64,000 nt of DNA from an uncultured Pelagibacteraceae bacterium (GCA_902539745.1 CACBKA010000005.1:10957-74956), one strand, 5' to 3'; numbered from the stretch's first letter, positions 42,166 through 56,205 are shown. Program-made: numbers and translations. Notes: generated from the sequence alone by a model not told the origin.

Positions 42166-42552
42166 ATGAAAAAAATTTTAGCTGAAATTTCTCTGGGCGA
42201 ATTAGCAGATAAACTTACTATTTTAGAGATCAAGCTCAAAAAAATAGAGGATAAAGAATCAATTAATATTATTAATAAGGAATATCAAAGTCTAAATAAT
42301 ATTGATTTAAAAGGTATAGATTTAAAAAAATACAAAGCCCTTTTTAATGAACTTAAGTCGGTAAACGAAAAACTGTGGGATATTGAAAATGAAAAAAGAT
42401 TATTGGAAAAAAATTCGCACTTTGAAGATAAATTTATTCAAGTTTCAAGAAATGTTCATTTCATGAATGATAAAAGAGCTAAAATTAAAAAAGAGATAAA
42501 TAGGACATTTGGATCAAATATTGAAGAAGTTAAAGAGTATACTAAGTACTAA
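42166..42552 (+). CDS. Conserved hypothetical helical protein (possibly DUF6165-like)
   Basis: 128 aa. GELADKLTILEIKLKKI ... NEKLWDIENEKR ... MNDKRAKIKKEIN. The family assignment is from memory only. Confidence 0.45.
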   Translation: MKKILAEISLGELADKLTILEIKLKKIEDKESINIINKEYQSLNNIDLKGIDLKKYKALFNELKSVNEKLWDIENEKRLLEKNSHFEDKFIQVSRNVHFMNDKRAKIKKEINRTFGSNIEEVKEYTKY

Positions 42553-43601
42553 GATTGATCTTTATTTAATAATGAAGAAGCAAAGTTCCATCTACAGTCG
42601 AAGCTAGGTATGAAAACCTCATCAAGTACAACATTACCAAAATTATTTTTTAATAAATCTAACCAATTTTTAACTTGCTTTGGTTTTTTTGACATGCAAC
42701 CCACTTGTGCTGTTAAAACACCATCCGGTTTTAAAATTCTTTTTAGACCTTTCATATTTTTAGCTGCTAGATTTATACAAAACTGATCATCATTTAGATC
42801 AACAAAAATTTTATCATATTTAGAATCTTTTACTTTTTTTATACTTTCAAAAGCATCCCCCCAATATGTTTTTACTTTATTGTTAGCTTTAGTATCTCCA
42901 CAAATTTTTGGAAGGTGTTTTTGACAAACTTTGACTACTTCAGGGTCTAGTTCATACCAATCAATTAAATCAAAGCCTTTTGATAACAATTCTCTTGCTA
43001 CGCCTCCGTCTCCACCGCCTATTATTGCGGCACTTGAGTTATTTTTTTGTAAATTCAGTGCGGAGGAAACAAATTGACTGCTATATTTTTTTTCATCTTT
43101 TTCTGCAACTTGCAATTCACTATCAATAAATAATGCGCATCCAAATTCCTCCAATTTAAGTATTTCAATATGCTGACCTGCTTTAGATACAAAGTTTTCT
43201 AAAGCATCAGTCACCACATAATATTTCTTGTGTCCAGGCGTACTATATATATCTTCATAAACTCCTTTGTTGCTTCTATCAAAACTTCTTACTACGGCTC
43301 TTTCATGTTTAATTTCTTCTTTTAAAATATCTAGTGCTGCAGTAGGTGAAATCTTACCACACGTAAAAAAATCGAAACTAATTATTCCCTTTTCAGGAAA
43401 AGTATGAAAACTCATATGGCTCTCTGCTAAGAGTGCTAAACAAGTATATCCCTGAGGTTTAAATATTTTTTCTGCGATGTTAAGGACTTCAATTTTGGCT
43501 TTTTTTGCTATTTTATATATAACCTTATTATAAAAATCTGGAGCGTAATCTCGTTTTACGCCTAAAAAATCTATCGTTACGTGTTCTCCAACTTTTTTCA
43601 T
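42549..43601 (-). CDS. Fusion of pyruvoyl-type S-adenosylmethionine decarboxylase (SpeD/SpeH) and spermidine synthase (SpeE)
   Basis: The N-terminal ~110 aa contain HVTIDFLG and the self-cleavage/pyruvoyl site LLAESHMSFHTFPEKG. The C-terminal ~230 aa contain the aminopropyltransferase motif IIGGGDGGVARELL. 350 aa. Confidence 0.8.
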   Translation of the reverse strand: MKKVGEHVTIDFLGVKRDYAPDFYNKVIYKIAKKAKIEVLNIAEKIFKPQGYTCLALLAESHMSFHTFPEKGIISFDFFTCGKISPTAALDILKEEIKHERAVVRSFDRSNKGVYEDIYSTPGHKKYYVVTDALENFVSKAGQHIEILKLEEFGCALFIDSELQVAEKDEKKYSSQFVSSALNLQKNNSSAAIIGGGDGGVARELLSKGFDLIDWYELDPEVVKVCQKHLPKICGDTKANNKVKTYWGDAFESIKKVKDSKYDKIFVDLNDDQFCINLAAKNMKGLKRILKPDGVLTAQVGCMSKKPKQVKNWLDLLKNNFGNVVLDEVFIPSFDCRWNFASSLLNKDQS

Positions 43602-43697
43602 TGTATCAACCTTTTTTAACGACTCTTTAATTTTTTAACTTGTTATTTAATTTTTTACAACTAAAAATATTCTTGTTAATAAAAAAGGAGATTGATT

Positions 43698-45731
43698 TTG
43701 AGAAACAATTGGTCAAACAAAATTGCAAACCGTTATGTAAAAAAGTACAAAAAACTTGGTTTTTCTAAGGATTTGGCTTTAAGAGTCTATACAACTCGTC
43801 TTCTTGGAAGAAATCCTGAACTTGTTCTTCATGGCGGGGGTAATACATCTGTAAAAACTACGATTAACGATATAGACGGAAAAAAATATAATGTTTTATG
43901 TGTTAAAGGTAGTGGTTGGGATATGGCAGACATTGAGCCACCTGGTCTTCCGGCAGTAAAATTAGATCCCCTTTTAAGTCTTAGAAAGAAAAAATATTTG
44001 TCAGACGAAGATATGGTTGCTTTTCAAAAAAGAAATTTAATAGATATTAAATCTCCAAATCCTTCTGTAGAAACATTTCTACATGCCTTCTTGCCTTATA
44101 AATATGTGGACCACACACATGCTGATGCTGTAATGAATGTAACTAATAGACCAGGAGGACTAAATTTAAGTAAAAAAATATTTGGAAAAAAAGCTAGCAT
44201 TGTTCCTTATGTAATGCCTGGTTTTATGTTAGCAAAAAAAGTGAATGAGGTTTATTCTGAAAATCCAGATATCGAATGTCTAATACTTATGAATCACGGA
44301 ATTTTTACTTTCTCTAATGATTGTAAAAGAGCTTATGATTTAATGATTAAATACGTTTCTAAGGCAGAAAGAGCTGTTAAAAAATTAAGATCAAAAAAAA
44401 TAAAACAAATTAAAAAAAATAATATTAAATTTAATCCACATGATATTGCACCGATAGTAAGAGGTCTTTTATCAGAAAATAAAGATCAAAAATTTGTGAT
44501 TAATTATAGATTAAATAAACATCTTAAATACTTCATAAATGGTAAAAATGTCAGAACTTATACCTCAAAAGGTACAGCAACACCTGATCACGTAATAAGG
44601 GTAAAGCCATTCCCTCTAATTATTACACCTAAAAAAAATTCATCTATAGATGATTTTAAAAAGACCGCAGAAAAAGCTTTTGATAATTATAGAAAAAAAT
44701 ATGTAAATTATTTCAAAGTAAATAGTAAAAAAGTTAAAGGTAAAAAAGTTATGTTAGATACTTCGCCAAGAGTGGTTCTTGTGCAAAATGTTGGTATGTT
44801 TAGCGTTGGTAAAGATCTTGGTTCAGCTAAAATAGCAGGCGACTTAACAGAAACTAATGCAAAAGTGATTAGTTCTGTCGAAGAAACTTCTACATATAAA
44901 TTTATACCTGAAAAAGATCTTTTTGATGTTGAATATTGGTCGTTGGAGCAAGCTAAAATTAAAAAAAAGAAAAAACTTTTAGAGGGAAATATTGTTGTTA
45001 TAACTGGAGCCACAGGAACAATTGGTTTTGAAACCTATAAAATATTTAAAAGTTACGGGGCAGAAGTTGTTTTGCTAGATAACGATCTTAATCGTTTAAA
45101 AGAAGTTCAATTGAAAATTAAAGACCTTTGTATACATTGCGATGTTACAAATAAAAAAAGTGTAAAAAGAGCCTTTAAAATAATTTGCGAAAAGTTTGGT
45201 GGGTTCGATATTTTAATATCAAATGCAGGGGCTGCACCTGGAGGAGAAATAGGTGAAGTAAGTGATGAGATATTAAGAAAAAGTTTTGAAATTAATTTTT
45301 TCTCCCATCAAAACTGTGCTTCAGAAGCAATTAAAATTATGAAAAAACAAAATATTAATGGTTGTTTATTGTTCAATATTTCAAAACAATCTGTCAATCC
45401 AGGAAAGAATTTTGGACCATACGGTTTACCTAAATCGGCTTTATTAAGTTTGTGTAAACAATATGCAGTTGATTATGGATCTATAGGTATTAGATCTAAT
45501 GGAGTGAATGCTGATAGAATAAAAAGTGGTCTAATGACTGGTAAAATGATTAAGACAAGAGCAAAAGCTAGATCTGTAAGTGCGGAGACATACATGAGAG
45601 GAAATTTATTATCTAATGAGGTAAAAGCTGAGGATGTAGCAAAAGCTTTTTTTCATCTTGCAGTTTCTAAAAAAACAACTGGAGCTGTGCTTACAGTTGA
45701 TGGTGGTAACATTGCTGCTTCTTTAAGGTAA
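43698..45731 (+). CDS. Bifunctional class II aldolase/adducin domain - short-chain dehydrogenase fusion (RhaD/YuxG-type)
   Basis: Aldolase part: HGGGNTSVK, PSVETFLHAF, VDHTHAD. SDR part: ITGATGTIG, NAGAAPGG, YGLPK (YxxxK). AAGGAG at 43685-43690 favours the TTG at 43698 over the TTG at 43692. Confidence 0.85.
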   Translation: MRNNWSNKIANRYVKKYKKLGFSKDLALRVYTTRLLGRNPELVLHGGGNTSVKTTINDIDGKKYNVLCVKGSGWDMADIEPPGLPAVKLDPLLSLRKKKYLSDEDMVAFQKRNLIDIKSPNPSVETFLHAFLPYKYVDHTHADAVMNVTNRPGGLNLSKKIFGKKASIVPYVMPGFMLAKKVNEVYSENPDIECLILMNHGIFTFSNDCKRAYDLMIKYVSKAERAVKKLRSKKIKQIKKNNIKFNPHDIAPIVRGLLSENKDQKFVINYRLNKHLKYFINGKNVRTYTSKGTATPDHVIRVKPFPLIITPKKNSSIDDFKKTAEKAFDNYRKKYVNYFKVNSKKVKGKKVMLDTSPRVVLVQNVGMFSVGKDLGSAKIAGDLTETNAKVISSVEETSTYKFIPEKDLFDVEYWSLEQAKIKKKKKLLEGNIVVITGATGTIGFETYKIFKSYGAEVVLLDNDLNRLKEVQLKIKDLCIHCDVTNKKSVKRAFKIICEKFGGFDILISNAGAAPGGEIGEVSDEILRKSFEINFFSHQNCASEAIKIMKKQNINGCLLFNISKQSVNPGKNFGPYGLPKSALLSLCKQYAVDYGSIGIRSNGVNADRIKSGLMTGKMIKTRAKARSVSAETYMRGNLLSNEVKAEDVAKAFFHLAVSKKTTGAVLTVDGGNIAASLR

Positions 45732-45737
45732 ATTTTA

Positions 45738-46211
45738 TTAATCGTTTAAAAGAACTGGGAAAACTGGTTTCATTTTTAAAAATAATCTTTGATATTCTTG
45801 TTTTATACATTTATTCATAATGCAAGTCAGTCCAGCGGATTTGGAGATCTCCTCAGCCTCATTGTTTTGAATTCCAAACTGTAGCCACAGTGTCTTGGCT
45901 CCAACTTTGATTGCATTTTTTGCTATATCGGGAGTTTCTTTGGATGGTCTAAAAACATTTACAATATCTATTTGTGAAGAAATATCCTCTAATTTTTCAA
46001 CTATTTTTTCTCCATTAACTTTTTTTCCAACTGAAAATGGATTTACAGGTATAACTTTATATCCAAATTCCAAAAGATATTTCATAACAATTATCGAGGG
46101 CTTTAGTCTCATTTTGGCAACTGCTTCATTTTCCTTAGGAACACTTGCTCCAACCATTGCTATGATTTTAGAAGTCTGAAGTGTTTCTTTAATTAAATTA
46201 TCTGATGTCAT
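45738..46211 (-). CDS. CoA-binding domain protein (YccU-like)
   Basis: 157 aa. IAMVGAS...GYKVIPVNP pattern. Confidence 0.7.
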   Translation of the reverse strand: MTSDNLIKETLQTSKIIAMVGASVPKENEAVAKMRLKPSIIVMKYLLEFGYKVIPVNPFSVGKKVNGEKIVEKLEDISSQIDIVNVFRPSKETPDIAKNAIKVGAKTLWLQFGIQNNEAEEISKSAGLTCIMNKCIKQEYQRLFLKMKPVFPVLLND

Positions 46212-46993
46212 TTATCTTTCCAATTTGGTTTTCTTTTCTCAATGAAAGCAGATATACCCTCTTTTGCATCAATGGCCATCATATTTTCACTCATAACTCG
46301 GCTTGTAAATTTATAGGCTTTATCTAAAGGCATTTCTAATTGCTTATAGAAAGCTTTTTTTCCAATTTTTACAATCTTTTTAGACTTTGAAGAAATATTT
46401 TCTGCTAACTTTACAACTTCCTCTTCTAAATTATCGTTGCTAAAATGATCATTAATTAAACCGATATCTTTAGCATGTTTAGCGCTAACTGGTTCACCTG
46501 TTAAAAGCATTCTCATTGCTTTCTTTCTTGCAACGTTTCTGCTTAAAGCAACCATTGGGGTACTGCAGAAAAGACCTATGTTAACTCCTGGTGTTGAAAA
46601 AATTGCATCGTCAGTACTCAATGCTAAATCACAGGTAGCAACTAATTGACAGCCTGCTGCAAATGCTGCACCATGCACTTTTGCAATAACTGGTTTATTG
46701 CAATTTATTATTACCATCATCAGCTCAGAGCATAATTCAAATAGTTTTTTATAATTTGGTTTGCCTTTTAAAGATTTTACCTCTTTCAAATTATGACCAG
46801 CGCTAAATCCCTTTCCTGAACCTTCAATAATGATAACTCTAGTTTTTTGATCTTTATCAAGCTCTTTAAATCTACTTATTAATGATTTCAACATACTAGT
46901 TGATAAAGAATTATATGTTCCTGGATCGTTTAATTTTAGTCTAGTTATACCGCTATTTGATCCTTGTAAAATTGTATAAGAATTGTTTTTCAT
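46208..46993 (-). CDS. Enoyl-CoA hydratase/isomerase (crotonase) family protein
   Basis: 261 aa. VIIIEGSGKGFSAGHNLKE and HGAAFAAGCQLV oxyanion-hole segments. Confidence 0.85.
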   Translation of the reverse strand: MKNNSYTILQGSNSGITRLKLNDPGTYNSLSTSMLKSLISRFKELDKDQKTRVIIIEGSGKGFSAGHNLKEVKSLKGKPNYKKLFELCSELMMVIINCNKPVIAKVHGAAFAAGCQLVATCDLALSTDDAIFSTPGVNIGLFCSTPMVALSRNVARKKAMRMLLTGEPVSAKHAKDIGLINDHFSNDNLEEEVVKLAENISSKSKKIVKIGKKAFYKQLEMPLDKAYKFTSRVMSENMMAIDAKEGISAFIEKRKPNWKDK

Positions 46994-48060
46994 TTAAATA
47001 AACTTTCTAATCCCTCAATTGATGCATTACAAACACCTTTTTCTGTGATTAGGCCGGTTACATATTTGGCCGGGGTAATATCAAATGCTAAATTCATTGA
47101 TTGACTTTTTTCTGGATAAATTAGAACTTTTGTTAATTTATTATTTTTATCTAACCCCTCTACATGGGAGAGTTCTTCAGAATTTCTTTCTTCGATTGGA
47201 ATATCCTTAGAATTTTTTATATTCCAATCTATTGTTGAACTAGGCAATGCCACATAAAAGGGTACCTTATTATCATGTGCAGCAAGAGCTTTTAGATAAG
47301 TTCCAATTTTATTACAAACATCCCCGTTAGATAAAGTTCTGTCAGTTCCAACTATACACATATCTACTTGTCCTCTTTGCATTAAAATACCACCTGCATT
47401 ATCAGTAATTATTGTATTTGATATTCCCTCCTCATTTAGTTCATATGATGTAAGATTGGCCCCTTGGTTTCTAGGTCTTGTTTCGTCTACCCAAACATGA
47501 ACTTTAATACCTTTTTTATGTGCATGATATATTGGAGAAGTTGCAGTTCCCCAATCAATAGTTGCCAACCAACCAGCGTTACAATGAGTTAAGATATTTA
47601 TCGTGTCTTTCTTTTTTTTAGATATTTCTTCAATTATTTTTAAACCATTGAGTCCTATGTTTTTACAAAAACCAATATCTTCTTCACAAATATTTTTTGC
47701 TTCTTTTATAGCAATATTTAAAATTTCCTCACTATTAACTCCGGATAATTTTTTCATCATTCTATCAACTGCCCATTTTAGATTTATTGCAGTTGGTCTT
47801 GAATTGATCAGATCTTCACCCGATTTTTTTAAAAAAGACTGATCATTCTTTTCAATTATTGATAAAACTAATCCGTATGCTGCTGTTGCTCCAATTAATG
47901 GCGCTCCTCTCACTTCCATATTTTTAATCGCAAGAATTGCGTCTTTAACACTTTTTAATTCTTTTATAATAAATTGATGTGGAAGTTTTGTTTGGTCAAT
48001 TATTTTAACAATATTATTATCAAACCATATAGTTCTAAATGCTTTTCCGTTTATATTCAT
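46990..48060 (-). CDS. mtnA: S-methyl-5-thioribose-1-phosphate isomerase
   Basis: 356 aa. eIF-2B-related fold. MEVRGAPLIGATAAYG and VGTDR motifs. Confidence 0.9.
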   Translation of the reverse strand: MNINGKAFRTIWFDNNIVKIIDQTKLPHQFIIKELKSVKDAILAIKNMEVRGAPLIGATAAYGLVLSIIEKNDQSFLKKSGEDLINSRPTAINLKWAVDRMMKKLSGVNSEEILNIAIKEAKNICEEDIGFCKNIGLNGLKIIEEISKKKKDTINILTHCNAGWLATIDWGTATSPIYHAHKKGIKVHVWVDETRPRNQGANLTSYELNEEGISNTIITDNAGGILMQRGQVDMCIVGTDRTLSNGDVCNKIGTYLKALAAHDNKVPFYVALPSSTIDWNIKNSKDIPIEERNSEELSHVEGLDKNNKLTKVLIYPEKSQSMNLAFDITPAKYVTGLITEKGVCNASIEGLESLFK

Positions 48061-48932
48061 TTATTTTTAAAAACTCTTCCAGCTATATGTTTTAATTTTT
48101 CTTTAGTTTCTTTTGTCATTAATTTTAGATCTGTAATAATAGCTGTATCCAAACAATTGTTTGCTGGATCTTTTTCATCATAGAACTGTTTGTAGGTTTT
48201 AATTAATTCTTTAATCATGTTTTGTGCATTAGATGCATTATTTTGTAAAGTTTTAACAACCATAGCAACATCTACTTCGTCATGCTCAGAGTGCCAACAA
48301 TCATAATCCGTAACCATCGCTACCGTGCAATACCTAATTTCAGCTTCTCTTGCTAATTTTGCTTCGGGCATATTTGTCATACCAATTACGTCAGCTTTCC
48401 AAGATCTATATAAATTTGACTCTGCAAAAGTTGAAAACTGAGGGCCTTCCATAACTACGTACGTTCCTCCCATTTGATGTTTTATATCAAGTTTTTTTAG
48501 AACTTCTTCACAACATTCTCTTAAAATTTTGCTAGTTGGTTGGGCCATTGATACATGAGCAACAATTTCGTTATCAAAGAAGGTTTTTACTCTTGAAAAA
48601 GTTCTATCTATGAATTGATCAACAATGACAAATGTTCCTGGGTCTAAATTTCCTTTTAATGAACCTACAGCGGATACAGATATTAGATCGGTTACCCCAA
48701 GTTGTTTCATAGCATCAATGTTTGCTCTAAAGTTTATATTTGTGGGGCTTATTTTGTGACCTCTTGAGTGTCGAGGTATAAAACATATCTCATTTCCATA
48801 AAATTTTGCTATCATCACAGAGTCAGAGGGGCTTCCCCAAGGAGTATCTACTTTTTTCCACTTCGGTTTTTCAAAACCCTCCATTTTATACAAACCGCTT
48901 CCACCAATTATCCCAAGCTTTCTATTTTTCAT
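48057..48932 (-). CDS. mtnP: S-methyl-5'-thioadenosine phosphorylase
   Basis: LGIIGGSGLY and FIPRHSRGH motifs. 291 aa. Confidence 0.9.
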   Translation of the reverse strand: MKNRKLGIIGGSGLYKMEGFEKPKWKKVDTPWGSPSDSVMIAKFYGNEICFIPRHSRGHKISPTNINFRANIDAMKQLGVTDLISVSAVGSLKGNLDPGTFVIVDQFIDRTFSRVKTFFDNEIVAHVSMAQPTSKILRECCEEVLKKLDIKHQMGGTYVVMEGPQFSTFAESNLYRSWKADVIGMTNMPEAKLAREAEIRYCTVAMVTDYDCWHSEHDEVDVAMVVKTLQNNASNAQNMIKELIKTYKQFYDEKDPANNCLDTAIITDLKLMTKETKEKLKHIAGRVFKNK

Positions 48933-48975
48933 GATTTAATTATTAATCTTTTTTTGTTAGATAATGAAGTAAAAT

Positions 48976-49503
48976 ATGGATTTAAAAGAATATATAAGAT
49001 CAATTCCTGACTACCCTAAAAAAGGCATACTGTTCAGAGATATTACTACTTTAATAAAAGATTCAAAGGCATTCAACTACTCAATTGATAAAATTGTAGA
49101 AATTTCAGAGAAATTAAATTTCGATAAAATAGCGGCTATAGAATCAAGAGGTTTTGTTTTTGCTTCGGCAGTCTCCTATAAGTTGAAAAAACCTTTCATA
49201 ATGTTGAGAAAAAAAAATAAATTACCTGCTGGAAAAATTTCAGTAGATTTTCAATTGGAATATGGAACAGCAACATTAGAAGTCCATAAGGATTCTATTA
49301 GCTCTGGGGAAAGAGTATTAATAATAGATGACCTAATTGCTACTGGAGGAACCGCAGAAGCTGGTGCTAAATTAGTTGAAATGTCTAAAGGGAAAGTTGC
49401 AGGATTTATTTTTATTATAAACTTATTTGATTTAGGTGGAAATAAAAAACTGAACGAAAAGTCTTATTTTACTAAAAGTTTAATAGAATTTCCTGGTCAC
49501 TAA
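48976..49503 (+). CDS. apt: Adenine phosphoribosyltransferase
   Basis: PRPP loop VLIIDDLIATGGT and N-terminal IPDYPKKGILFRDIT. 175 aa. Confidence 0.9.
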   Translation: MDLKEYIRSIPDYPKKGILFRDITTLIKDSKAFNYSIDKIVEISEKLNFDKIAAIESRGFVFASAVSYKLKKPFIMLRKKNKLPAGKISVDFQLEYGTATLEVHKDSISSGERVLIIDDLIATGGTAEAGAKLVEMSKGKVAGFIFIINLFDLGGNKKLNEKSYFTKSLIEFPGH

Positions 49504-49506
49504 AAA

Positions 49507-50394
49507 TTAATTTAACTTAAGTAAAAAGTTTTGAATGTAATTTTTAAGCTCAATTTTACCAAAGTATTTATATACTTTATTTGAAAGACTTTTATTTGTA
49601 AGCGCAGAAGCATATCTTTCACCTTTGCGTTTAGGCAAATATCTAATTTTTGTGTTAAACATTTTTGCAACTTCTTTAATTGAATGTTCCTTTTTGTTAG
49701 CAATGCTATAATGCCTACATAATTTTCTTTTCCAGGCCATATAACAAACATCAACAGTATCAAATATATGTGTAAACCTCCTTGTTTGTGTACCAGGTTT
49801 TACAACAGGAAGAGATTTTCTTTTTTTATAATGATTCTCGAAGATGCCGATAACAGTGGCCATCTCTCCTTCACAAATCTGATATGGACCATAAACATTG
49901 TAAAAGTAAATTACTTCATATTTAAAATTAAACCATTTTTTTAAATTTTCTAATAATTCTAAATTTTTTGCTTTTGTGAATGCATAAGGGGATAAGTTTT
50001 TGTCATTACCTTTATTACCTAAAGAAGCTGAAGTAGCAGAGTAAATAAGTTTTATTTTATTTTTTAAACAAAAATTAAAGACAGCATTGGTACCTACCGA
50101 ATTTGAATTAATACATTGATTCATTTTCTTAAAACTTTGATATATTCTTGCAAATTCACCAAAATGAAACACAGCAATTATTTCTCTCGGATTTTTTATT
50201 ATTTCAGCGATATTCTTAGTGTTACCTCTATAGTATTTTACTCTATTATTTCTTATGTGATTATTTTTTGTGCCTGATGAATAATCATCAATACTAATAA
50301 TTTTAAATTTTGTTTTTTTCAAAAGAAGGTTTATTAAATTAGTCCCGACAAATCCAGCACCGCCTGTTACTAAAATATTCTTAATTTTTGGCAT
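49507..50394 (-). CDS. NAD-dependent sugar-nucleotide epimerase/dehydratase (extended SDR; UXS/GalE-like)
   Basis: VTGGAGFVGTNL and YAFTK (YxxxK). 295 aa. Confidence 0.75.
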   Translation of the reverse strand: MPKIKNILVTGGAGFVGTNLINLLLKKTKFKIISIDDYSSGTKNNHIRNNRVKYYRGNTKNIAEIIKNPREIIAVFHFGEFARIYQSFKKMNQCINSNSVGTNAVFNFCLKNKIKLIYSATSASLGNKGNDKNLSPYAFTKAKNLELLENLKKWFNFKYEVIYFYNVYGPYQICEGEMATVIGIFENHYKKRKSLPVVKPGTQTRRFTHIFDTVDVCYMAWKRKLCRHYSIANKKEHSIKEVAKMFNTKIRYLPKRKGERYASALTNKSLSNKVYKYFGKIELKNYIQNFLLKLN

Positions 50395-50497
50395 TCAAGA
50401 TTTATATTTTAAAAATTGATTAAATCAACAATTGATTTTAACAAGTAATTCTTTTACTAATTAAATATATTAGATCATTTCTTTTTAAAATTTATAT

Positions 50498-51529
50498 ATG
50501 AGGAAAATCATAGTAACAGGTGGTCAGGGTTTTATTGGTAGTAATTTGGTAGAGTTTTTATTAGAAAAGAACTACTTTGTTATAAATATTGATAAATCGA
50601 ATTACTCAGCAAATCCCTACAATGTTAAAGATTTTAAAAAAAATAAAAAATATATTTTTTATAAATTAGATATAAACAATAAAACCAAACTCTTAAAAAT
50701 TATTAAAAAATTCAAACCTGATGGTATTTTCAATCTTGCAGCTGAAACGCATGTAGATAGATCGATAGATAGCCCATACGCATTTTTAAAAACTAACATA
50801 ATGGGTGTTTTTAATATTTTAGAAACTCTAAGATCTTTTAATAAAAAAAATAAAAAAGTCATTAAACTTATTCATGTTTCAACTGATGAAGTTTATGGTG
50901 ATATTCCAAAACATAAACAAGTTAACGAAGATTATAATTATAATCCAAGCTCTCCCTATTCTGCATCTAAAGCTGCTGCTGATCAATTATTGAAAGCATA
51001 CTTCAGAACCTATTCATCTAAAATAGTAATAGCAAATGCATGTAATAATTATGGCCCAAGACAATTACCAGAAAAATTTATTCCAAAAATTATTTATAAT
51101 ATTTTAAAGAATAAATCTATACCCCTTTATGGAAAGGGCACTAATGTAAGGGAGTGGATCTATGTAAAAGATAACTGTGAAGCTTTACTTAAAATTTTTT
51201 TAAAAGGTAAAATAGGAAGAAATTATAATATTGGTACTGGAAAAAGAATAAAAAATATTGAAATAATTAAAAATATTTTAAGTATTGCAAAAAAAAATAA
51301 AGTTAAATTTTCAAATAAATTAAAGATTAAATATGTAAAAGATAGACCAGGTCATGACAAAAGATATGCGGTAAATTCAAATAAAATTAGAAATGAACTA
51401 AACTGGAAACCAAAAATATCACTTTCGGTTGGGTTAAATAAAACTTTAAGGTGGTATGTGACTAACAAAAAGTTTTTTGAACAAATTTCAAAAAAAAATA
51501 TAAATAAAAGGTTTGGACTTAAAATTTGA
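50498..51529 (+). CDS. rfbB: dTDP-glucose 4,6-dehydratase-type enzyme
   Basis: VTGGQGFIGSN, STDEVYGD and YSASKAAAD motifs. 343 aa. Confidence 0.85.
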   Translation: MRKIIVTGGQGFIGSNLVEFLLEKNYFVINIDKSNYSANPYNVKDFKKNKKYIFYKLDINNKTKLLKIIKKFKPDGIFNLAAETHVDRSIDSPYAFLKTNIMGVFNILETLRSFNKKNKKVIKLIHVSTDEVYGDIPKHKQVNEDYNYNPSSPYSASKAAADQLLKAYFRTYSSKIVIANACNNYGPRQLPEKFIPKIIYNILKNKSIPLYGKGTNVREWIYVKDNCEALLKIFLKGKIGRNYNIGTGKRIKNIEIIKNILSIAKKNKVKFSNKLKIKYVKDRPGHDKRYAVNSNKIRNELNWKPKISLSVGLNKTLRWYVTNKKFFEQISKKNINKRFGLKI

Positions 51530-53073
51530 TATCAGAAAAAAATAATAAGATAGTATATTTAATAATTATTTTAACTTGTGTTTTTTTAAGTTTCTCACAT
51601 TCTTTATATCAGGTAGCAATAAATGGCGGTTTGACATTATCCGAGATAATTAAATATCCCGAACCTTTATCTCCGATGAAATACTACTATCATAATAGTT
51701 GGACATTGTTACACCAATTTGCTGAAATTTTATTAAATTCTGGATTATCTATAAATAATAGCTCAAGAGCAATTCTTTTTCTTTCTACTTTATGTTTTGG
51801 AATAAGCTCATTTTTAATTGTAAATAAACTAACCTTTAATAAATATTTGGCACTTCTTGTAAGTATATTAATGCTTATTTTACAAAAAAATTTTGGGGAC
51901 ACTGATTATCCCTCTCTTATTTTTTCTAATCAAAGTTATGGCATGTTTAGTTTGGCTCTTACATCTTTAATTTTTAGTTTGATTTTAAATGAAAATTTTA
52001 AATATTCAGGCTTTTTCACACTTTTATTAATTTCTGTACATCCTGTTGTTGGTTTTTGGATGTTATCAATATTAGTAATAAGTTTAATAATTTATAAAGA
52101 TAAAAAGATAAGTTTAGAATTTTTTAAAGGTGGTTCTTTCGGACTAGTCATAACATTGCTAAGCCTTTTTTTCTTTTACAGCAATTATATCGAAAAAGTA
52201 GAGTTTGATAGTAGTTTTTATAAAATTTATATGGAACTCTGGGATGGCCATAGGAATTTATCTGGGATAGTCCATTATGAATATTTAATAAAGACTTTAT
52301 TGTTGTTTGCTACATTAAATACTTATTATTTTTTACAAAAGAATAAACAAAAAAATTTTTTTCATTTAATAATAAATTTGTCTATTACGTTTTCCACGAT
52401 ATTTTATCTTTCTTATAAGTTTTTTCCAAATTTATTTCCAGATATTTTTATCAGATTAATGCCAACAAGATTTTTGATATTACACTCATATATTGGATGG
52501 CCTTTAATTATTTCAATTATATATTTTATTTTTTTAAAGTTAAATTCTATTAAAAAATTTGTTCAGATTTTTATTTTTGCAGTTTTAATTATTCACTCAA
52601 TTCAACATTATAAAAAATTTATTTTTTTAAAAAATAACTTTATAATAAATATATCTAAGGAGGATAAACTTTATAATTTTGATATTTTTAAAGAAATATC
52701 AAAATTAGACTATAAAGGATATTTTATTACTTCATCAGACACAGTAAATTACGTAAATCAATATTCATTAAAACCAGTTTTATTGGATACACAATCATTG
52801 GATTTTCTTCCTTATCACCCATATCTTATTAAAGTTTCATTTGAAATACTTGAGGATATTTATGATGTTCAAATGAATAATCCACCAAATAAAAATGATC
52901 CGCGTATTCCAAATGAATTTATAAAAAAAAGTTTTGAGGCAAAAAATAAATCTGATTGGGAATATATTAAAAAAAAATATAATGCAAATTATGTAATAGT
53001 TCCAAAGAATTGGAAAATAAATTTAAATTTATTGAATAGTAATAATTTTTATTCTATTTATCAAATCGAATAA
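51526..53073 (+). CDS. Large polytopic membrane protein, candidate GT-C-type glycosyltransferase or polymerase
   Basis: 515 aa: ten or more hydrophobic helices followed by a soluble tail of roughly 150 aa. 4-nt overlap with rfbB. Lies next to a GtrB/ArnC-like GT2 gene. No family motif recognised. Confidence 0.5.
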   Translation: MISEKNNKIVYLIIILTCVFLSFSHSLYQVAINGGLTLSEIIKYPEPLSPMKYYYHNSWTLLHQFAEILLNSGLSINNSSRAILFLSTLCFGISSFLIVNKLTFNKYLALLVSILMLILQKNFGDTDYPSLIFSNQSYGMFSLALTSLIFSLILNENFKYSGFFTLLLISVHPVVGFWMLSILVISLIIYKDKKISLEFFKGGSFGLVITLLSLFFFYSNYIEKVEFDSSFYKIYMELWDGHRNLSGIVHYEYLIKTLLLFATLNTYYFLQKNKQKNFFHLIINLSITFSTIFYLSYKFFPNLFPDIFIRLMPTRFLILHSYIGWPLIISIIYFIFLKLNSIKKFVQIFIFAVLIIHSIQHYKKFIFLKNNFIINISKEDKLYNFDIFKEISKLDYKGYFITSSDTVNYVNQYSLKPVLLDTQSLDFLPYHPYLIKVSFEILEDIYDVQMNNPPNKNDPRIPNEFIKKSFEAKNKSDWEYIKKKYNANYVIVPKNWKINLNLLNSNNFYSIYQIE

Positions 53074-53080
53074 TCTTAAA

Positions 53081-54016
53081 TTATTTTTTATAGTCTTTAA
53101 TATCTTTTATAACGTATCTTGTTCTACCTTTTGTTTGTTCAAAAATTCTTGCTAAGTAAATTCCCATTATTCCAATAGTTGATAATAGAGCTCCTGAAAA
53201 AAAAGATATTACAATTAAAATTCCGGTTGTACCGGGTACAGCAATTCCTGATACTTTTGCATAAAAAGCATAAATGATTAATAATATTGAAAAAAGAAAA
53301 GCAAAAAATCCCAACAATACGCCCAGGTAAAGTGGTTTTAATGAATAACTAGTAACACCCCTTATAAATTGAGTTACTGGTCCTTCAGCAAACAATGAAA
53401 ATTTAGATTCTCCTGCCTCTCTTGCTTCTCTAACATAATCTACATAAGTTTGCTTAAAGCCAACCCAAACGGATAAGCCACGAATATATGGATTATATTC
53501 TTTTTGCTCTAAAATTTTATCTAAAGCTCTTTTAGATATCAATTTAAAGTCTCCTACATCTTTTTCTAAATTTATATCTGATAATTTGTGAATAATCGTG
53601 TAAGCAATATTTGTAAAAAATAATTTAAATTTTGGCTCTCCTAACCTTTTCGTTCTTTTCGTGTGAACAATATCAAAACCTTTTTCATGTTGTTTTACTA
53701 ATTCGGTAATTAGTTCAGGTGGGTCTTGAAGATCTGAGTCCATGTAGATTATACAATCACCCGAGCAATTTTCAAAACCAGCTAAAACACATGGGTTAGT
53801 TCCAAATCTTCTAGACATGTTAATAATTTTTATTGGAAATTGTTTCTGTAAATCTAATAATATATTTTCAGAATTATCAGTTGAATCATCATTCACAAAT
53901 ATCAACTCATAATCCCAATTTTGAGTTTTTTTAACTGATTTGTGAACTCTATCAATAAGACTTTTTAAATTTTTCTCTTCGTTTCTAAATGAAAAAACAA
54001 AAGAAATTAATTTCAT
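53081..54016 (-). CDS. GT2 polyprenyl-phosphate glycosyltransferase (GtrB/ArnC/DPM1-like)
   Basis: FVNDDSTDNS and YMDSDLQDPPE motifs plus two C-terminal TM helices. 311 aa. Confidence 0.8.
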   Translation of the reverse strand: MKLISFVFSFRNEEKNLKSLIDRVHKSVKKTQNWDYELIFVNDDSTDNSENILLDLQKQFPIKIINMSRRFGTNPCVLAGFENCSGDCIIYMDSDLQDPPELITELVKQHEKGFDIVHTKRTKRLGEPKFKLFFTNIAYTIIHKLSDINLEKDVGDFKLISKRALDKILEQKEYNPYIRGLSVWVGFKQTYVDYVREAREAGESKFSLFAEGPVTQFIRGVTSYSLKPLYLGVLLGFFAFLFSILLIIYAFYAKVSGIAVPGTTGILIVISFFSGALLSTIGIMGIYLARIFEQTKGRTRYVIKDIKDYKK

Positions 54017-54084
54017 AATATTTGAATAAAAGACTATTTAATAATATCTTAAAATGATAAAAAAAGTAACCATAGAATATCAAA

Positions 54085-55272
54085 ATGCACTCTTTAGATT
54101 TAGTAGTTTTAGCTGGAGGTAAAGGTTCTAGAATTAAATACCTTCTAAAAAAGAAAGCTAAACCAATGGCTATTTTTAACAAAAAACCATTCATAGAATA
54201 TATTATACAGAATTATAGTAAATATCGTTTTAAAAATATCTTTCTACTAACTGGTTACAAATCTAAGGAAATAATAAATAAATTTCATAAGAAGTACTAC
54301 AATTTCACGTTAATAAATTGTCTTAAAGAAAAAAAGCTTATGGGTACAGGTGGTGCTCTTAATATTTTAAAGAAAAAAAAATTAAACGATTTTATTTTAA
54401 TTAATGGGGATACATTTCTTAATGTTGATTTGAGTAAATTAATTAAATCGTGCAGTAGAAATAGTTTTGGATCCCTTTGTTTGGTAAAAAGTAAATCATA
54501 TAAATCAAATAGGAAATTAATAACTATGGGTTTAAAGCAAGGAAGAATTGTTTTTAAAAATTCAGGTGGCTTCATGAATGGAGGTGTATATTTCTTTAAA
54601 AAAAAAATTTTGAAACTCATTAAAAATAAAAACCTCTCTTTAGAAAATGAGATTTTACCGAATTTAATAAATAAGAAAAAAATTTCAGGAATTGTTGCAA
54701 GCAGTTTCTTTTTAGATATCGGTACACCTATTAATTTTAAGAGAGCAAAAAAACTTTTGATTAAAAATTGTTCAAAACCTGCTGCGTTCTTAGATAGAGA
54801 TGGTGTAATAAATTATGATACCGGTTACGTTCATAAAATTAGAGATTTTAAATTTAGACCCGGAGTTATTGAAGGATTAAAATTATTAATAAAAAGGAAT
54901 TACTTTATTTTCATTGTTACAAATCAAGCAGGAATTGGTAAAGATATCTTTTCAAAAAGTGAGTTTTATAGACTGCATAATCAAATAAAAGAAAAACTTC
55001 AAAATAAAAATATATTTTTTGATGATGTAAATTACTGTCCATATCATCCAAAGGCAAAATTAAAAAAATATAGAAAAAAAACCGAACTAAGAAAACCAGG
55101 AAATTTAATGATACGTCAAATTAAAAAAAAGTGGCATATAAAAGACAGTGGTAGTTTTATGATTGGGGATAAAATTTCCGACAAAATTTGCGCTAAAAAA
55201 AGTAAGTTGTATTTTGAATTTGCAGAAAGAAATTTTCTTAATCAAATTAAAAGAATTACCAAACGAAGCTAG
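54085..55272 (+). CDS. Fusion of sugar-1-phosphate nucleotidyltransferase (HddC/RmlA-like) and D,D-heptose 1,7-bisphosphate phosphatase (GmhB, HAD)
   Basis: N-terminal part: VVLAGGKGSRI and LMGTGGAL. C-terminal part: FLDRDGVIN, TNQAGIGK, YCPYHP, RKPGNLM, GDKISD (GmhB signature set). 395 aa. Confidence 0.8.
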   Translation: MHSLDLVVLAGGKGSRIKYLLKKKAKPMAIFNKKPFIEYIIQNYSKYRFKNIFLLTGYKSKEIINKFHKKYYNFTLINCLKEKKLMGTGGALNILKKKKLNDFILINGDTFLNVDLSKLIKSCSRNSFGSLCLVKSKSYKSNRKLITMGLKQGRIVFKNSGGFMNGGVYFFKKKILKLIKNKNLSLENEILPNLINKKKISGIVASSFFLDIGTPINFKRAKKLLIKNCSKPAAFLDRDGVINYDTGYVHKIRDFKFRPGVIEGLKLLIKRNYFIFIVTNQAGIGKDIFSKSEFYRLHNQIKEKLQNKNIFFDDVNYCPYHPKAKLKKYRKKTELRKPGNLMIRQIKKKWHIKDSGSFMIGDKISDKICAKKSKLYFEFAERNFLNQIKRITKRS

Positions 55273-56204: not shown

Positions 56205-56205
56205 T

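What the first reader, a model, noticed from the sequence alone, without database searches (positions are those of the whole stretch)
42549..49503. Self-contained SAM to spermidine to MTA to adenine/thio-sugar neighbourhood
Seen in sequence, within 7 kb:
- a SpeD-SpeE fusion;
- a divergently transcribed class II aldolase-SDR fusion, with a shared spacer of 90-96 bp;
- a convergent operon mtnP-mtnA-crotonase-CoA-binding protein;
- a divergent apt.

Established knowledge: AdoMetDC and spermidine synthase convert SAM to spermidine and release MTA. MtnP splits MTA into adenine and methylthioribose-1-P. Apt recycles adenine to AMP. MtnA gives methylthioribulose-1-P.

Inference: the clustering covers producer, by-product cleavage and purine recycling in one place. 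This implies that the neighbouring non-canonical genes (aldolase-SDR, crotonase, CoA-binding) handle the remaining methylthio-sugar. That would matter for organisms reported to depend on exogenous reduced sulfur, as SAR11 is.
Basis: partly seen in the sequence, partly recalled or inferred. Interest (0 to 1): 0.7.

Follow-up and report, generated by a model that had tools for sequence, protein, structure and literature searches.

The report
SAR11 MTA-disposal cluster with aldolase-dehydrogenase fusion
In this SAR11 (Pelagibacter) genome the genes that make spermidine, split its by-product methylthioadenosine and recycle the adenine sit next to an uncharacterised aldolase-dehydrogenase fusion; that fusion is also found beside methylthioadenosine-salvage genes in many other bacteria, so it most likely performs the missing sugar-cleaving step, while the neighbouring crotonase and CoA-binding genes are passengers.

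Summary
All seven genes are at the stated coordinates and carry the stated domains.

- **Aldolase-SDR fusion (NCBIfam NF006192, not RhaEW): supported.** In all 11 Pelagibacteraceae species loci it lies divergent from speDE, and mtnA/mtnP/apt follow it wherever the contig reaches far enough.
- **Outside SAR11:** 34 of 69 species loci have mtnA or mtnP within 10 kb. In 23 of them one of these genes lies less than 300 bp upstream on the same strand (mtnP-(apt)-mtnA-fusion, sometimes with 4-bp overlaps).
- **Kinase variant:** Mesorhizobium, Shinella, Pararhizobium, Agrobacterium and Mariluticola replicons carry regulator - fusion - sugar ABC transporter - mtnK - mtnA.
- No stand-alone class II aldolase lies in any of these flanks.
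- **Best explanation:** a variant of the known DHAP shunt. The fusion would cleave methylthioribulose-1-P (and 5-deoxyribulose-1-P) to DHAP and then process the aldehyde. This is inferred; there is no biochemistry.
- **Crotonase and CoA-binding genes: not supported.** They form a portable two-gene module inserted here only in the window's sublineage. They are absent from the other SAR11 and non-SAR11 loci and sit in unrelated contexts elsewhere.

I could not test whether canonical mtnB/C/D/E exist elsewhere in the genome. I found no prior report in the searchable literature. I rate it a new variant of a known kind.

The parts
42549..43601 (-). SpeD-SpeE fusion (S-adenosylmethionine decarboxylase + aminopropyltransferase). 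It makes spermidine and releases MTA.
   Evidence: Pfam AdoMet_dc plus Spermine_synth, and TIGR03330 above cutoff. The SAR11 fusion is reported as already characterised (Green et al. 2011, as cited in PMC8437039). It lies divergent from the aldolase-SDR fusion in 11 of 11 Pelagibacteraceae loci.
43602..43697 (.). Divergent intergenic spacer between speDE and the fusion. It carries a sublineage-conserved, promoter-like motif (ACTTGTTATTTAATTTTTTACAACTAAAAAT).
   Evidence: Spacer comparison across SAR11 loci. The consensus promoter scan is uninformative in this AT-rich DNA. No Rfam family matches.
43698..45731 (+). Class II aldolase + degenerate aldolase-like domain + SDR fusion (NF006192). It is the predicted methylthioribulose-1-P / 5-deoxyribulose-1-P aldolase with a fused aldehyde oxidoreductase. 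An alternative start lies at 43692.
   Evidence: NF006192 scores 885 against 639; RhaEW TIGR02632 scores 435 against 568, below cutoff. Catalytic E127, H141, H143 and H202 are invariant and align with class II aldolase motifs. SDR residues N535/S564/Y577/K581 and D463 are present. AF2 model pLDDT 90.8, with Foldseek hits to 3m4r and NAD-dependent SDRs. The middle domain has a class II aldolase-like fold. Gene-neighbourhood evidence.
45738..46211 (-). CoA_binding_2 protein. It is the last gene of the mtnP transcription unit in this sublineage and is probably a passenger, not part of the pathway.
   Evidence: Pfam. It is always paired with the crotonase but occurs in unrelated contexts elsewhere. 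It is absent from the other SAR11 and non-SAR11 loci.
46208..46993 (-). ECHDC3-like enoyl-CoA hydratase (NF006008). It is translationally coupled to mtnA here and is probably a passenger.
   Evidence: The best PDB hits are 3myb and 2vx2 (ECHDC3), with no DmdD entry among the top 60. Distribution.
46990..48060 (-). MtnA, the methylthioribose-1-phosphate isomerase.
   Evidence: TIGR00512 scores 421 bits against a cutoff of 279. It is conserved next to the fusion in SAR11 and many other lineages.
48057..48932 (-). MtnP, the methylthioadenosine phosphorylase.
   Evidence: TIGR01694 scores 319 bits against a cutoff of 275. Conserved linkage.
48976..49503 (+). Apt, the adenine phosphoribosyltransferase, divergent from mtnP with a 43-bp spacer.
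   Evidence: TIGR01090 scores 208 bits against a cutoff of 186. mtnP-apt adjacency holds in SAR11 and in 8-9 non-SAR11 operons of the form mtnP-apt-mtnA-fusion.

Best explanation
The locus is a SAM by-product disposal unit built around a variant of the dihydroxyacetone-phosphate (DHAP) shunt.

**Predicted steps**
1. SpeDE decarboxylates SAM and transfers the aminopropyl group to putrescine, releasing 5'-methylthioadenosine (MTA).
2. MtnP phosphorolyses MTA to adenine and methylthioribose-1-P. It probably acts on 5'-deoxyadenosine too.
3. Apt returns the adenine to AMP.
4. MtnA isomerises the sugar phosphate to methylthioribulose-1-P.
5. The N-terminal class II aldolase domain of the 677-aa fusion cleaves this to DHAP plus 2-(methylthio)acetaldehyde, or acetaldehyde from the 5-deoxy analogue.
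6. The fused NAD-type SDR domain removes the reactive aldehyde at once. By analogy with RhaEW this is most likely oxidation to 2-(methylthio)acetate. Reduction to 2-(methylthio)ethanol is the alternative.

**Status of each step**
- The identities of steps 1-4 follow from above-cutoff family assignments.
- Steps 5-6 are inferred from domain chemistry and from conserved gene neighbourhood in several independent architectures.
- The direction of the SDR and the fate of the methylthio-C2 product are unknown. It could be excreted, or converted to methanethiol and reassimilated by MetY/MetC.
- The crotonase and CoA-binding genes are co-transcribed passengers inserted in this sublineage.
For: Gene identities.

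SAR11 conservation:
- speDE lies divergent from the fusion in 11 of 11 Pelagibacteraceae species loci.
- mtnA/mtnP/apt lie downstream in 9 of 11. The other two contigs end too early.
- The same order holds in 13 or more metagenome contigs of the window's sublineage.
- A 66%-identical sister-lineage fusion (L002) keeps the convergent mtnA but has no speDE.

Outside SAR11:
- 34 of 69 GTDB species loci have mtnA or mtnP within the flank, and 23 have one less than 300 bp upstream on the same strand.
- Arrangements seen: mtnP-fusion, mtnA-fusion, mtnP-mtnA-fusion and mtnP-apt-mtnA-fusion, with 4-bp mtnA/fusion overlaps in L042 and L060.
- Kinase variant: regulator - fusion - sugar ABC transporter - mtnK (TIGR01767, 513 bits against 275) - mtnA in Mesorhizobium and Chelativorans.
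- The same kinase variant appears, under the depositors' own annotation, on plasmids of Pararhizobium, Shinella, Mariluticola and Agrobacterium.
- Tistrella mobilis pTM3 carries mtnP-mtnA-fusion.

Other lines:
- No stand-alone class II aldolase lies in any flank.
- All sampled fusions are NF006192 and fall below the RhaEW cutoff. In an NJ tree the clade is separate from RhaEW, and mtn-linked tips are spread through it.
- The catalytic Glu, three His and the SDR tetrad are conserved, and the fold is confirmed.
- Precedent: RhaEW, the characterised relative, converts a ketose-1-P to DHAP plus a carboxylate with NAD+ (PMC3870299).
- The DHAP shunt is defined as MtnP or MtnN+MtnK, then MtnA, then Ald2. 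Its aldehyde-reducing enzyme is still described as unidentified (PMC10986504; PMC13474568; PMC5893883).
Against: - There are no biochemical or genetic data for any NF006192 member.
- RhaEW acts on L-rhamnulose-1-P (L-threo at C3/C4), whereas methylthio-D-ribulose-1-P is D-erythro, the stereochemistry of FucA-type Ald2/DrdA. This is from my own knowledge of class II aldolases. A change of stereospecificity has to be assumed.
- About half of the non-SAR11 loci show no mtn gene within 10 kb.
- One subclade (L066, L072, L078) sits with an FGGY kinase, another SDR and a different ABC transporter, so the family is not restricted to one substrate.
- Many mtnP-linked loci share a syntenic petABC ... 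ychF/pth backbone. They are therefore not independent observations. I count roughly five independent architectures, not 34.
- The rest of the genome could not be searched for MtnB/C/D/E, Ald2 or an RLP.
- A 2026 preprint states that 'methionine salvage' is at least 98% complete in Pelagibacter, without listing the genes it counted.
Confidence: 0.7

Rival explanations
1. One reading: the crotonase and the CoA-binding protein also take part, converting the methylthio fragment through CoA thioesters, so that the whole seven-gene block is one pathway.
For: In the window the two genes are translationally coupled to mtnA (4-bp overlaps). The order mtnP-mtnA-ECH-CoAb is kept across contigs with 78-97% ECH identity. 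SAR11 lacks a DmdD orthologue for a methylthio-acyl-CoA hydratase step (PMC5069961), so an orphan crotonase is tempting.
Against: - Neither gene gives a hit in the 11 GTDB Pelagibacteraceae loci or in any of the 69 other loci.
- In L007 and L008, mtnA directly follows the fusion. In other SAR11 genomes the slot holds unrelated inserts: a TrpB-like PLP enzyme with DUF1015, a BKACE, an SMR transporter or a hydrolase.
- At about 75% identity the pair sits after cytochrome oxidase genes (L099) or trkAH (L101) with no mtn genes.
- The ECH is ECHDC3-like (3myb, 2vx2), not DmdD-like.
- There is no CoA ligase in the cluster, and a saturated methylthioacetyl-CoA has no enoyl bond to hydrate.
Confidence: 0.08
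2. The fusion is an ordinary deoxy-sugar catabolic enzyme (RhaEW-like, for rhamnose- or fucose-type ketose-1-phosphates or another sugar). Its position next to mtn genes reflects inherited synteny and tight packing of a streamlined genome, not shared function.
For: - The characterised relatives are rhamnulose-1-P aldolase/lactaldehyde dehydrogenases.
- Some NF006192 members lie in sugar ABC/FGGY kinase clusters.
- Half of the non-SAR11 loci are not mtn-linked.
- Many linked loci share one syntenic backbone.
Against: - The protein scores below the RhaEW cutoff and falls in a separate clade.
- RhaEW orthologues are reported to lie always in rha loci (PMC3870299), yet no rhamnose isomerase or kinase is in the window or in the SAR11 flanks.
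- Linkage to mtn genes recurs in unrelated contexts that share only the mtn genes: the SAR11 speDE context, the petABC context, the plasmid-borne transporter-mtnK-mtnA context, and Tistrella pTM3.
- mtnA and the fusion overlap by 4 bp in some operons.
Confidence: 0.12
3. The same enzymes serve mainly to dispose of 5'-deoxyadenosine from radical-SAM enzymes (5-deoxyribulose-1-P to DHAP plus acetaldehyde, then acetate), with MTA as a secondary substrate.
For: - The known DHAP shunt is bifunctional for MTA and 5'-deoxyadenosine, with similar efficiency (PMC13474568; PMC6079011).
- In the sister-lineage locus L002 a radical-SAM/SPASM gene lies directly upstream of the fusion.
- The plasmid clusters with a sugar transporter and mtnK resemble 5-deoxyribose utilisation clusters.
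Against: In all SAR11 loci the fusion shares a divergent promoter region with speDE, the MTA producer. This is not really exclusive of the best explanation, because both substrates are expected.
Confidence: 0.25
4. The N-terminal domain acts as an MtnB-type dehydratase and not an aldolase, and the SDR reduces or oxidises the diketone product. That would give an unknown route back to methionine.
For: MtnB belongs to the same class II aldolase superfamily. The profile of the N-terminal domain hits the Aquifex MtnB-like protein 2irp about as weakly as it hits FucA (1.9e-5 against 1.4e-5).
Against: The only characterised members of this fusion architecture are true aldolases coupled to aldehyde oxidation. 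A fused aldehyde dehydrogenase has an obvious substrate only after aldol cleavage. No enolase-phosphatase or dioxygenase gene accompanies the fusion in any locus.
Confidence: 0.05

Closest known systems
DHAP shunt for MTA / 5'-deoxyadenosine salvage (MtnP or MtnN+MtnK, MtnA, Ald2/DrdA; R. rubrum, R. palustris, E. coli ExPEC, B. thuringiensis)
   Same: The first two enzymes are the same. The phosphorylase and kinase variants both occur. The genes are clustered with a class II aldolase-superfamily gene and sometimes with sugar transporters. The predicted products are DHAP plus a C2 aldehyde.
   Different: - The aldolase is not an Ald2/DrdA (FucA-type, about 210 aa) orthologue. It is a 677-aa RhaE-type protein with a second degenerate aldolase-like domain and a fused SDR.
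- The aldehyde-processing enzyme is unidentified in the known shunt and is built in here.
- In SAR11 the unit is joined to speDE and apt.
RhaEW (YuxG / Caur_2283), bifunctional L-rhamnulose-1-P aldolase / L-lactaldehyde dehydrogenase (TIGR02632)
   Same: The domain architecture matches. The catalytic Glu, three His and the SDR tetrad are conserved. The cofactor site is NAD-type. Identity is about 30-35% over the full length.
   Different: It belongs to a different NCBIfam family (NF006192). It scores below the RhaEW cutoff and forms a separate clade. It is never in rha loci here and is linked instead to mtnP/mtnK/mtnA. The predicted substrate has the opposite C4 configuration.
Universal methionine salvage pathway (MtnB, MtnC or MtnW/X, MtnD, MtnE)
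   Same: It shares MtnP/MtnK and MtnA, and the intermediate methylthioribulose-1-P.
   Different: No MtnB, enolase-phosphatase, dioxygenase or dedicated aminotransferase lies in the window or next to the fusion in any locus. The predicted route does not regenerate the methionine carbon skeleton.
MTA-isoprenoid shunt (RLP 1,3-isomerase plus cupin methylsulfurylase)
   Same: It uses the same upstream steps. On some rhizobial plasmids an RLP gene lies in the same cluster as the fusion, as R. palustris has both RLP and Ald2 routes.
   Different: There is no RLP or cupin in the window or in the SAR11 flanks.
SpeD-SpeE fusion proteins (Green et al. 2011, cited in PMC8437039)
   Same: The window's 350-aa protein has this architecture, and the SAR11 enzyme is reported as already characterised.
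   Different: Nothing new. Only its conserved divergent pairing with the aldolase-SDR gene is added here.

Membership tests
DHAP shunt | MTA phosphorylase (MtnP), or nucleosidase plus MtnK | tested here: met
   The window MtnP scores 319 bits on TIGR01694 against a cutoff of 275. MtnK (TIGR01767, 513 bits against 275) is present in the kinase-variant loci.
DHAP shunt | MTR-1-P / 5-deoxyribose-1-P isomerase (MtnA) | tested here: met
   TIGR00512 scores 421 bits against a cutoff of 279.
DHAP shunt | Ald2/DrdA-type (FucA-like, stand-alone) class II aldolase | tested here: not met
   The only class II aldolase domain in the window is in the fusion. It is only remotely related to FucA (profile E 1.4e-5). 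No stand-alone aldolase lies in any related flank. So this works like the shunt but is not an orthologous member.
DHAP shunt | Aldolase activity on methylthioribulose-1-P / 5-deoxyribulose-1-P giving DHAP | not testable with these tools
   Needs enzyme assays.
DHAP shunt | Clustering of the kinase/phosphorylase, isomerase and aldolase genes | tested here: met
RhaEW (TIGR02632) | Score above the curated cutoff | tested here: not met
   435 bits against a cutoff of 567.75. True RhaEW representatives P0196 and P0215 pass.
RhaEW (TIGR02632) | Located in a rhamnose utilisation locus | tested here: not met
   No rha genes in the window or the SAR11 flanks. [quoted passage not shown]
NF006192 bifunctional aldolase/short-chain dehydrogenase | Full-length match above the curated cutoff | tested here: met
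   885 bits against 639. Ten related loci score 959-1148 bits.
Class II (metal-dependent) aldolase superfamily | Catalytic Glu and three metal-binding His; characteristic fold | tested here: met
   E127, H141, H143 and H202 are invariant. They align with the PS.E / HTH / HG motifs of 1pvt, 2opi and 2irp. Foldseek hit to 3m4r has target TM-score 0.93. The assignment of these motifs to catalytic roles is from my own knowledge.
Short-chain dehydrogenase/reductase (classical SDR) | Gly-rich dinucleotide motif, N-S-Y-K tetrad, acidic residue after beta-2 for NAD preference | tested here: met
   TGATGTIG at about residues 437-444, N535, S564, Y577, K581 and D463. Structural matches are to NAD-dependent SDRs.
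Universal methionine salvage pathway | MtnB, MtnC (or MtnW/X), MtnD and MtnE present in the genome | not testable with these tools
   Only 64 kb is available and none is in the window. The preprint claim of module completeness does not list the genes counted.
DmdD / methylthioacryloyl-CoA hydratase (for the crotonase) | Closest similarity to DmdD; association with dmd genes | tested here: not met
   The top PDB hits are 3myb and ECHDC3 2vx2 (238 and 229 bits), against about 136 bits or less for all others. No DmdD entry is among the top 60. No dmd genes are nearby.

The most novel reading that the evidence does not exclude
SAR11 and a broad set of other Alphaproteobacteria dispose of MTA through a previously unrecognised DHAP-shunt variant. 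In it, a tandem-aldolase-SDR fusion (NF006192) replaces Ald2 and the still-unidentified alcohol dehydrogenase, and it oxidises 2-(methylthio)acetaldehyde to 2-(methylthio)acetate. The most abundant marine heterotroph, which depends on exogenous reduced sulfur, would then either excrete a so far unmonitored methylthio-C2 compound or possess an unknown enzyme that recovers methanethiol from it.
Probability: 0.3. Interest if true: 0.75.

Novelty: new variant of a known kind. Interest (0 to 1): 0.6.

Why it matters
- It would give a specific, testable function to NF006192, a widespread enzyme family that is annotated only generically.
- It would supply a candidate for the aldehyde-handling step that reviews of the DHAP shunt still list as unknown.
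- It would define what happens to methylthioadenosine in SAR11, whose growth depends on exogenous reduced sulfur.
- If the sulfur leaves as methylthioacetate or methylthioethanol, that is an unaccounted organosulfur flux. If it is recovered as methanethiol, an unknown C-S cleaving enzyme remains to be found.
- The work also shows that operon membership in SAR11 (the crotonase and CoA-binding genes) can be a poor guide to function.

Tried and rejected
- **Rfam, whole window, gathering thresholds:** no match. There is no SAM riboswitch at this locus.
- **Consensus promoter/terminator scan of 42-49.7 kb:** fewer hits than in shuffled controls, so uninformative.
- **Exact-sequence look-up of the window's fusion:** not on record, so the source genome could not be named beyond *Ca.* Pelagibacter.
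- **Context of representative P0122:** the contig is only 3 kb, so uninformative.
- **Single-sequence PDB search with the N-terminal domain:** reached only 3m4r. A profile was needed.
- **Sequence search of the middle region against the PDB:** nothing. Only the fold comparison showed it to be aldolase-like.
- **Preprint's 'methionine salvage complete' statement:** I could not resolve it from the text or supplement. The KO list is not given, and mtnB/mtnC/mtnD KOs are absent from the table of rescued KOs.
- **North et al. 2017 and 2020, Green et al. 2011:** not held in the library, so a prior mention of fused aldolases there cannot be excluded.
- **Crotonase as a DmdD/AcuH substitute:** considered and rejected on distribution and similarity.
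- **All 34 linked loci as independent observations:** considered and rejected, because many share one syntenic backbone.

Full report
**1. What is there**

The window is AT-rich (about 30% G+C). The closest relatives of its proteins are 85-99% identical sequences from marine metagenomes and *Candidatus* Pelagibacter MAGs, so it comes from a SAR11 genome.

Their family assignments hold:
- a SpeD-SpeE fusion (42549-43601, minus strand);
- a class II aldolase-SDR fusion (43692/43698-45731, plus strand);
- a CoA_binding_2 protein (45738-46211, minus);
- an enoyl-CoA hydratase of NCBIfam NF006008 (46208-46993, minus);
- MtnA (46990-48060, minus);
- MtnP (48057-48932, minus);
- Apt (48976-49503, plus).

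MtnA, MtnP and Apt all exceed the curated equivalog cutoffs. The four minus-strand genes overlap by 4 bp at each junction. The fusion and the CoA-binding gene converge with 6 bp between their stop codons. speDE and the fusion diverge across 90-96 bp, and mtnP and apt diverge across 43 bp. The likelier start of the fusion is the TTG at 43698, which has GGAG 8 nt upstream and matches most homologues at 677 aa. The flanks encode cell-envelope glycosyltransferases and sugar-nucleotide enzymes, not mtn genes. No other class II aldolase is present among the window's ORFs. Rfam finds nothing in the window.

**2. Is the arrangement conserved in SAR11?**

A scan of one genome per GTDB species with an alignment of fusion homologues returned 80 loci, 11 of them Pelagibacteraceae.
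- In all 11, speDE lies divergently upstream of the fusion at 79-105 bp.
- In 9 of the 11, mtnA lies downstream on the opposite strand. In 7 of those, mtnP and apt are also within reach.
- The two exceptions are contigs that end too early.
- A 66%-identical fusion from a sister lineage (L002) keeps the convergent mtnA. It has a radical-SAM gene in place of speDE.

So the producer - by-product cleavage - adenine recycling neighbourhood is a conserved SAR11 feature.

**3. The crotonase and CoA-binding genes are passengers**

- Neither gene gives any tblastn hit in the 11 Pelagibacteraceae species loci or in the 69 other loci.
- In L007 and L008, mtnA follows the fusion directly.
- In other SAR11 genomes the slot between the fusion and mtnA, or between mtnA and mtnP, holds unrelated genes: a TrpB-like PLP enzyme with DUF1015, a BKACE enzyme, an SMR transporter or a secreted hydrolase.
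- A metagenome scan with the crotonase found 23 contigs. At 78-97% identity the order mtnP-mtnA-ECH-CoAb is kept, with the convergent fusion present wherever the contig extends that far; L096 is an exception (next point).
- At about 75% identity the ECH-CoAb pair lies after cytochrome oxidase genes (L099) or trkAH (L101). In L096 it is followed by yjeF/ubiH/ubiA and not the fusion.
- The pair is therefore a portable two-gene module.
- The crotonase is closest to *M. smegmatis* 3myb and human ECHDC3 (238 and 229 bits, against 136 or less for all others). No DmdD entry is among the top 60 PDB hits.

Translational coupling to mtnA in this sublineage shows co-expression, not shared function.

**4. 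The aldolase-SDR fusion is the conserved partner of the mtn genes well beyond SAR11**

Among the 69 non-SAR11 species loci (mostly other Alphaproteobacteria, 44-54% identity), 34 have mtnA or mtnP within the fetched flank. In 23 of these, one lies less than 300 bp upstream on the same strand. Seven loci have too little upstream sequence to judge.

The arrangements differ:
- mtnP-fusion (6 loci);
- mtnA-fusion (2-3 loci);
- mtnP-mtnA-fusion (8 loci);
- mtnP-apt-mtnA-fusion (8 loci);
- mtnP-mtnA-x-x-fusion (2 loci);
- fusion-x-mtnA (1 locus).

In L042 and L060 the mtnA stop codon overlaps the fusion's start codon.

A distinct architecture occurs in Mesorhizobium and Chelativorans. It consists of a SorC/DeoR-type regulator, the fusion, a divergently transcribed ribose-type ABC transporter, then mtnK (TIGR01767, 513 bits against a cutoff of 275) and mtnA. 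The same architecture, under the depositors' own annotation, is present on plasmids of *Pararhizobium qamdonense*, *Shinella* sp., *Mariluticola halotolerans* and *Agrobacterium* sp. MA01. *Tistrella mobilis* pTM3 carries mtnP-mtnA-fusion.

No stand-alone class II aldolase (Ald2, DrdA or MtnB type) occurs in any flank.

Caveats:
- Many mtnP-linked loci share a petABC ... ychF/pth backbone and so reflect common descent. I count about five independent contexts, not 34.
- About half of the loci are unlinked.
- One small subclade (L066, L072, L078) lies with an FGGY kinase, another SDR and a different ABC transporter, so the family is not mono-specific.

**5. What the fusion is**

- All ten sampled relatives, linked or not, are NF006192 above cutoff and fall below the RhaEW (TIGR02632) cutoff. 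True RhaEW representatives score the other way round.
- In a neighbour-joining tree, NF006192 is separated from RhaEW, NF006194 and NF006195-like sequences. mtn-linked tips occur in both the SAR11 branch and the main alphaproteobacterial branch.
- The N-terminal domain keeps E127 in a PS.E motif, H141/H143 (HTH) and H202 (HG). These are invariant in the family and align with the same motifs of solved class II aldolases. I take them to be the catalytic Glu and the three metal-binding His, from my own knowledge of the superfamily.
- The SDR domain keeps N535, S564, Y577 and K581, plus an Asp (D463) at the position that favours NAD over NADP.
- An AlphaFold model is confident (pLDDT 90.8). It matches 3m4r, an N-terminal class II aldolase domain (target TM-score 0.93), and NAD-dependent SDRs. 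No full-length structure is solved.
- The about 200-residue middle region has no Pfam or PDB sequence match. When modelled alone it gives Foldseek hits drawn almost entirely from the class II aldolase/adducin superfamily (FucA 2opi TM 0.54, RhaD, YgbL, DrdA), although only the top hit has E <= 0.001. The architecture is therefore a catalytic aldolase domain, a degenerate aldolase-like domain and an SDR.

**6. Mechanism proposed**

The characterised relatives, RhaEW of *Chloroflexus* and *Bacillus*, convert rhamnulose-1-P to DHAP plus lactate. They require NAD+, and the aldolase step depends on the dehydrogenase step (PMC3870299).

The known DHAP shunt converts MTA or 5'-deoxyadenosine via MtnP (or MtnN+MtnK) and MtnA to a ribulose-1-P. 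The stand-alone aldolase Ald2/DrdA then cleaves this to DHAP plus 2-(methylthio)acetaldehyde or acetaldehyde. The enzyme that next handles the aldehyde is still described as unknown (PMC10986504; PMC6079011; PMC5893883; PMC13474568).

Combining these, the fusion most likely performs the aldol cleavage and the immediate conversion of the aldehyde. I favour oxidation to 2-(methylthio)acetate, or acetate from the 5-deoxy substrate, because of the RhaEW precedent and the NAD-type site. Reduction to 2-(methylthio)ethanol, the product seen in *Rhodospirillum* and *Rhodopseudomonas*, is not excluded. SAR11 can assimilate methanethiol through MetY/MetC (PMC5069961), but nothing in this locus suggests how methanethiol would be released.

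Family assignments and gene linkage are shown here. The substrate, the direction of the SDR and the fate of the sulfur are inferred.

A stereochemical caveat, from established knowledge of class II aldolases: rhamnulose-1-P is L-threo at C3/C4, whereas D-ribulose-1-P derivatives are D-erythro. NF006192 must therefore differ from RhaEW in C4 specificity.

**7. Comparison with what is known, and novelty**

- The SpeD-SpeE fusion of SAR11 is reported as already described (Green et al. 2011, as cited in PMC8437039).
- MtnP, MtnA and Apt are ordinary.
- The DHAP shunt is known. What appears new is that an RhaE-type aldolase-SDR fusion takes the place of Ald2 and of the unknown dehydrogenase, in SAR11 and many other Alphaproteobacteria.
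- Full-text searches found nothing relevant: SAR11 or Pelagibacter with methylthioadenosine, methylthioribose, methionine salvage or rhamnulose; and mtnA/mtnP with aldolase and short-chain dehydrogenase.
- Two key DHAP-shunt papers are not in the library, so I cannot fully exclude an earlier mention.
- The locus works like a DHAP shunt. It fails the membership test for an Ald2 orthologue and for RhaEW. I rate it a new variant of a known kind.

**8. What remains open**

A 2026 preprint says methionine salvage is at least 98% complete in 135 Pelagibacter genomes but does not list the genes it counted.

The decisive work is enzymology of the fusion with MTA-derived substrates, complementation of ald2 mutants, a whole-genome HMM census, and isotope tracing of MTA in SAR11 cultures.

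Noticed in passing
window 45738-46993; L099 2489-3781; L101 3806-5061; L096 2847-4139: The ECHDC3-like crotonase and the CoA_binding_2 protein always travel as a pair, but in different SAR11 lineages they sit in unrelated contexts: after mtnA, after cytochrome oxidase genes, or after trkAH. This is a small portable two-gene module of unknown function.
   Followed up: partly
window 45732-48060 and the equivalent slot in L003, L005, L009-L013: The short stretch between the fusion and mtnA/mtnP is an insertion hot spot in SAR11. Different genomes carry a TrpB-like PLP enzyme with DUF1015, a BKACE enzyme, an SMR transporter, a secreted S9-like hydrolase, the ECH-CoAb pair, or nothing.
   Followed up: partly
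window 44374-44987 (fusion residues about 228-432): The conserved middle region of the fusion has no Pfam or PDB sequence match, but it folds like a second, degenerate class II aldolase domain (Foldseek FucA 2opi TM 0.54, E 8e-4). It carries a strongly conserved TPDH(V/I)IR(T/V)K motif. It may form an intramolecular pseudo-dimer that completes the active site.
   Followed up: partly
L106 15452-20052; L108 12701-17802; L109 14951-20052: On plasmids of Pararhizobium, Mariluticola and Agrobacterium, mtnK-mtnA is followed in the same direction by a split transketolase (DXS-N-like plus Tkt-C) and a RuBisCO-like protein. This suggests a second, RLP/transketolase-based branch for methylthioribulose-1-P or 5-deoxyribulose-1-P in the same cluster as the fusion.
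   Followed up: no
L043 8297-8893; L045 (same position); probably also L036, L054, L071: A glutathione S-transferase-family gene sits inside the operon mtnP-apt-GST-mtnA-fusion in Rhizomicrobium-type genomes. It is a possible candidate for thiol-dependent release of methanethiol from the methylthio-C2 product.
   Followed up: no
window 43602-43697: The speDE/fusion spacer carries a motif conserved within the window's sublineage (ACTTGTTATTTAATTTTTTACAACTAAAAAT, duplicated in L084). Other SAR11 sublineages have a different conserved core (TTTTTTACTTCTTTCAAAYAAAAAACT). It could be a promoter or an operator.
   Followed up: partly
window 43692 vs 43698: The mechanical ORF start (TTG at 43692) is probably wrong. 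TTG at 43698 has a GGAG 8 nt upstream and gives the 677-aa length of most homologues.
   Followed up: yes
window 49507-58000: A low-G+C stretch (0.24-0.26, against about 0.30 elsewhere) encodes sugar-nucleotide epimerases/dehydratases, glycosyltransferases and a 515-aa multi-pass membrane ORF with no Pfam match. It looks like a variable cell-surface polysaccharide island.
   Followed up: no
L003, L005-L010, L012, L013 (upstream of speDE): In most other SAR11 species an amino-acid-type ABC transporter (one SBP_bac_3 binding protein plus two permeases) lies between the DUF6165 gene and speDE. It is absent from the window, where DUF6165 abuts speDE with a 4-bp overlap of their 3' ends.
   Followed up: no
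L002 7150-8148: In the sister lineage with a 66%-identical fusion, a radical-SAM/SPASM gene lies directly upstream of the fusion where SAR11 has speDE. This hints that 5'-deoxyadenosine disposal may be the linked function there.
   Followed up: no
window 1-64000: No Rfam family reaches its gathering score anywhere in the 64-kb window: no tRNA, riboswitch or other known RNA.
   Followed up: yes
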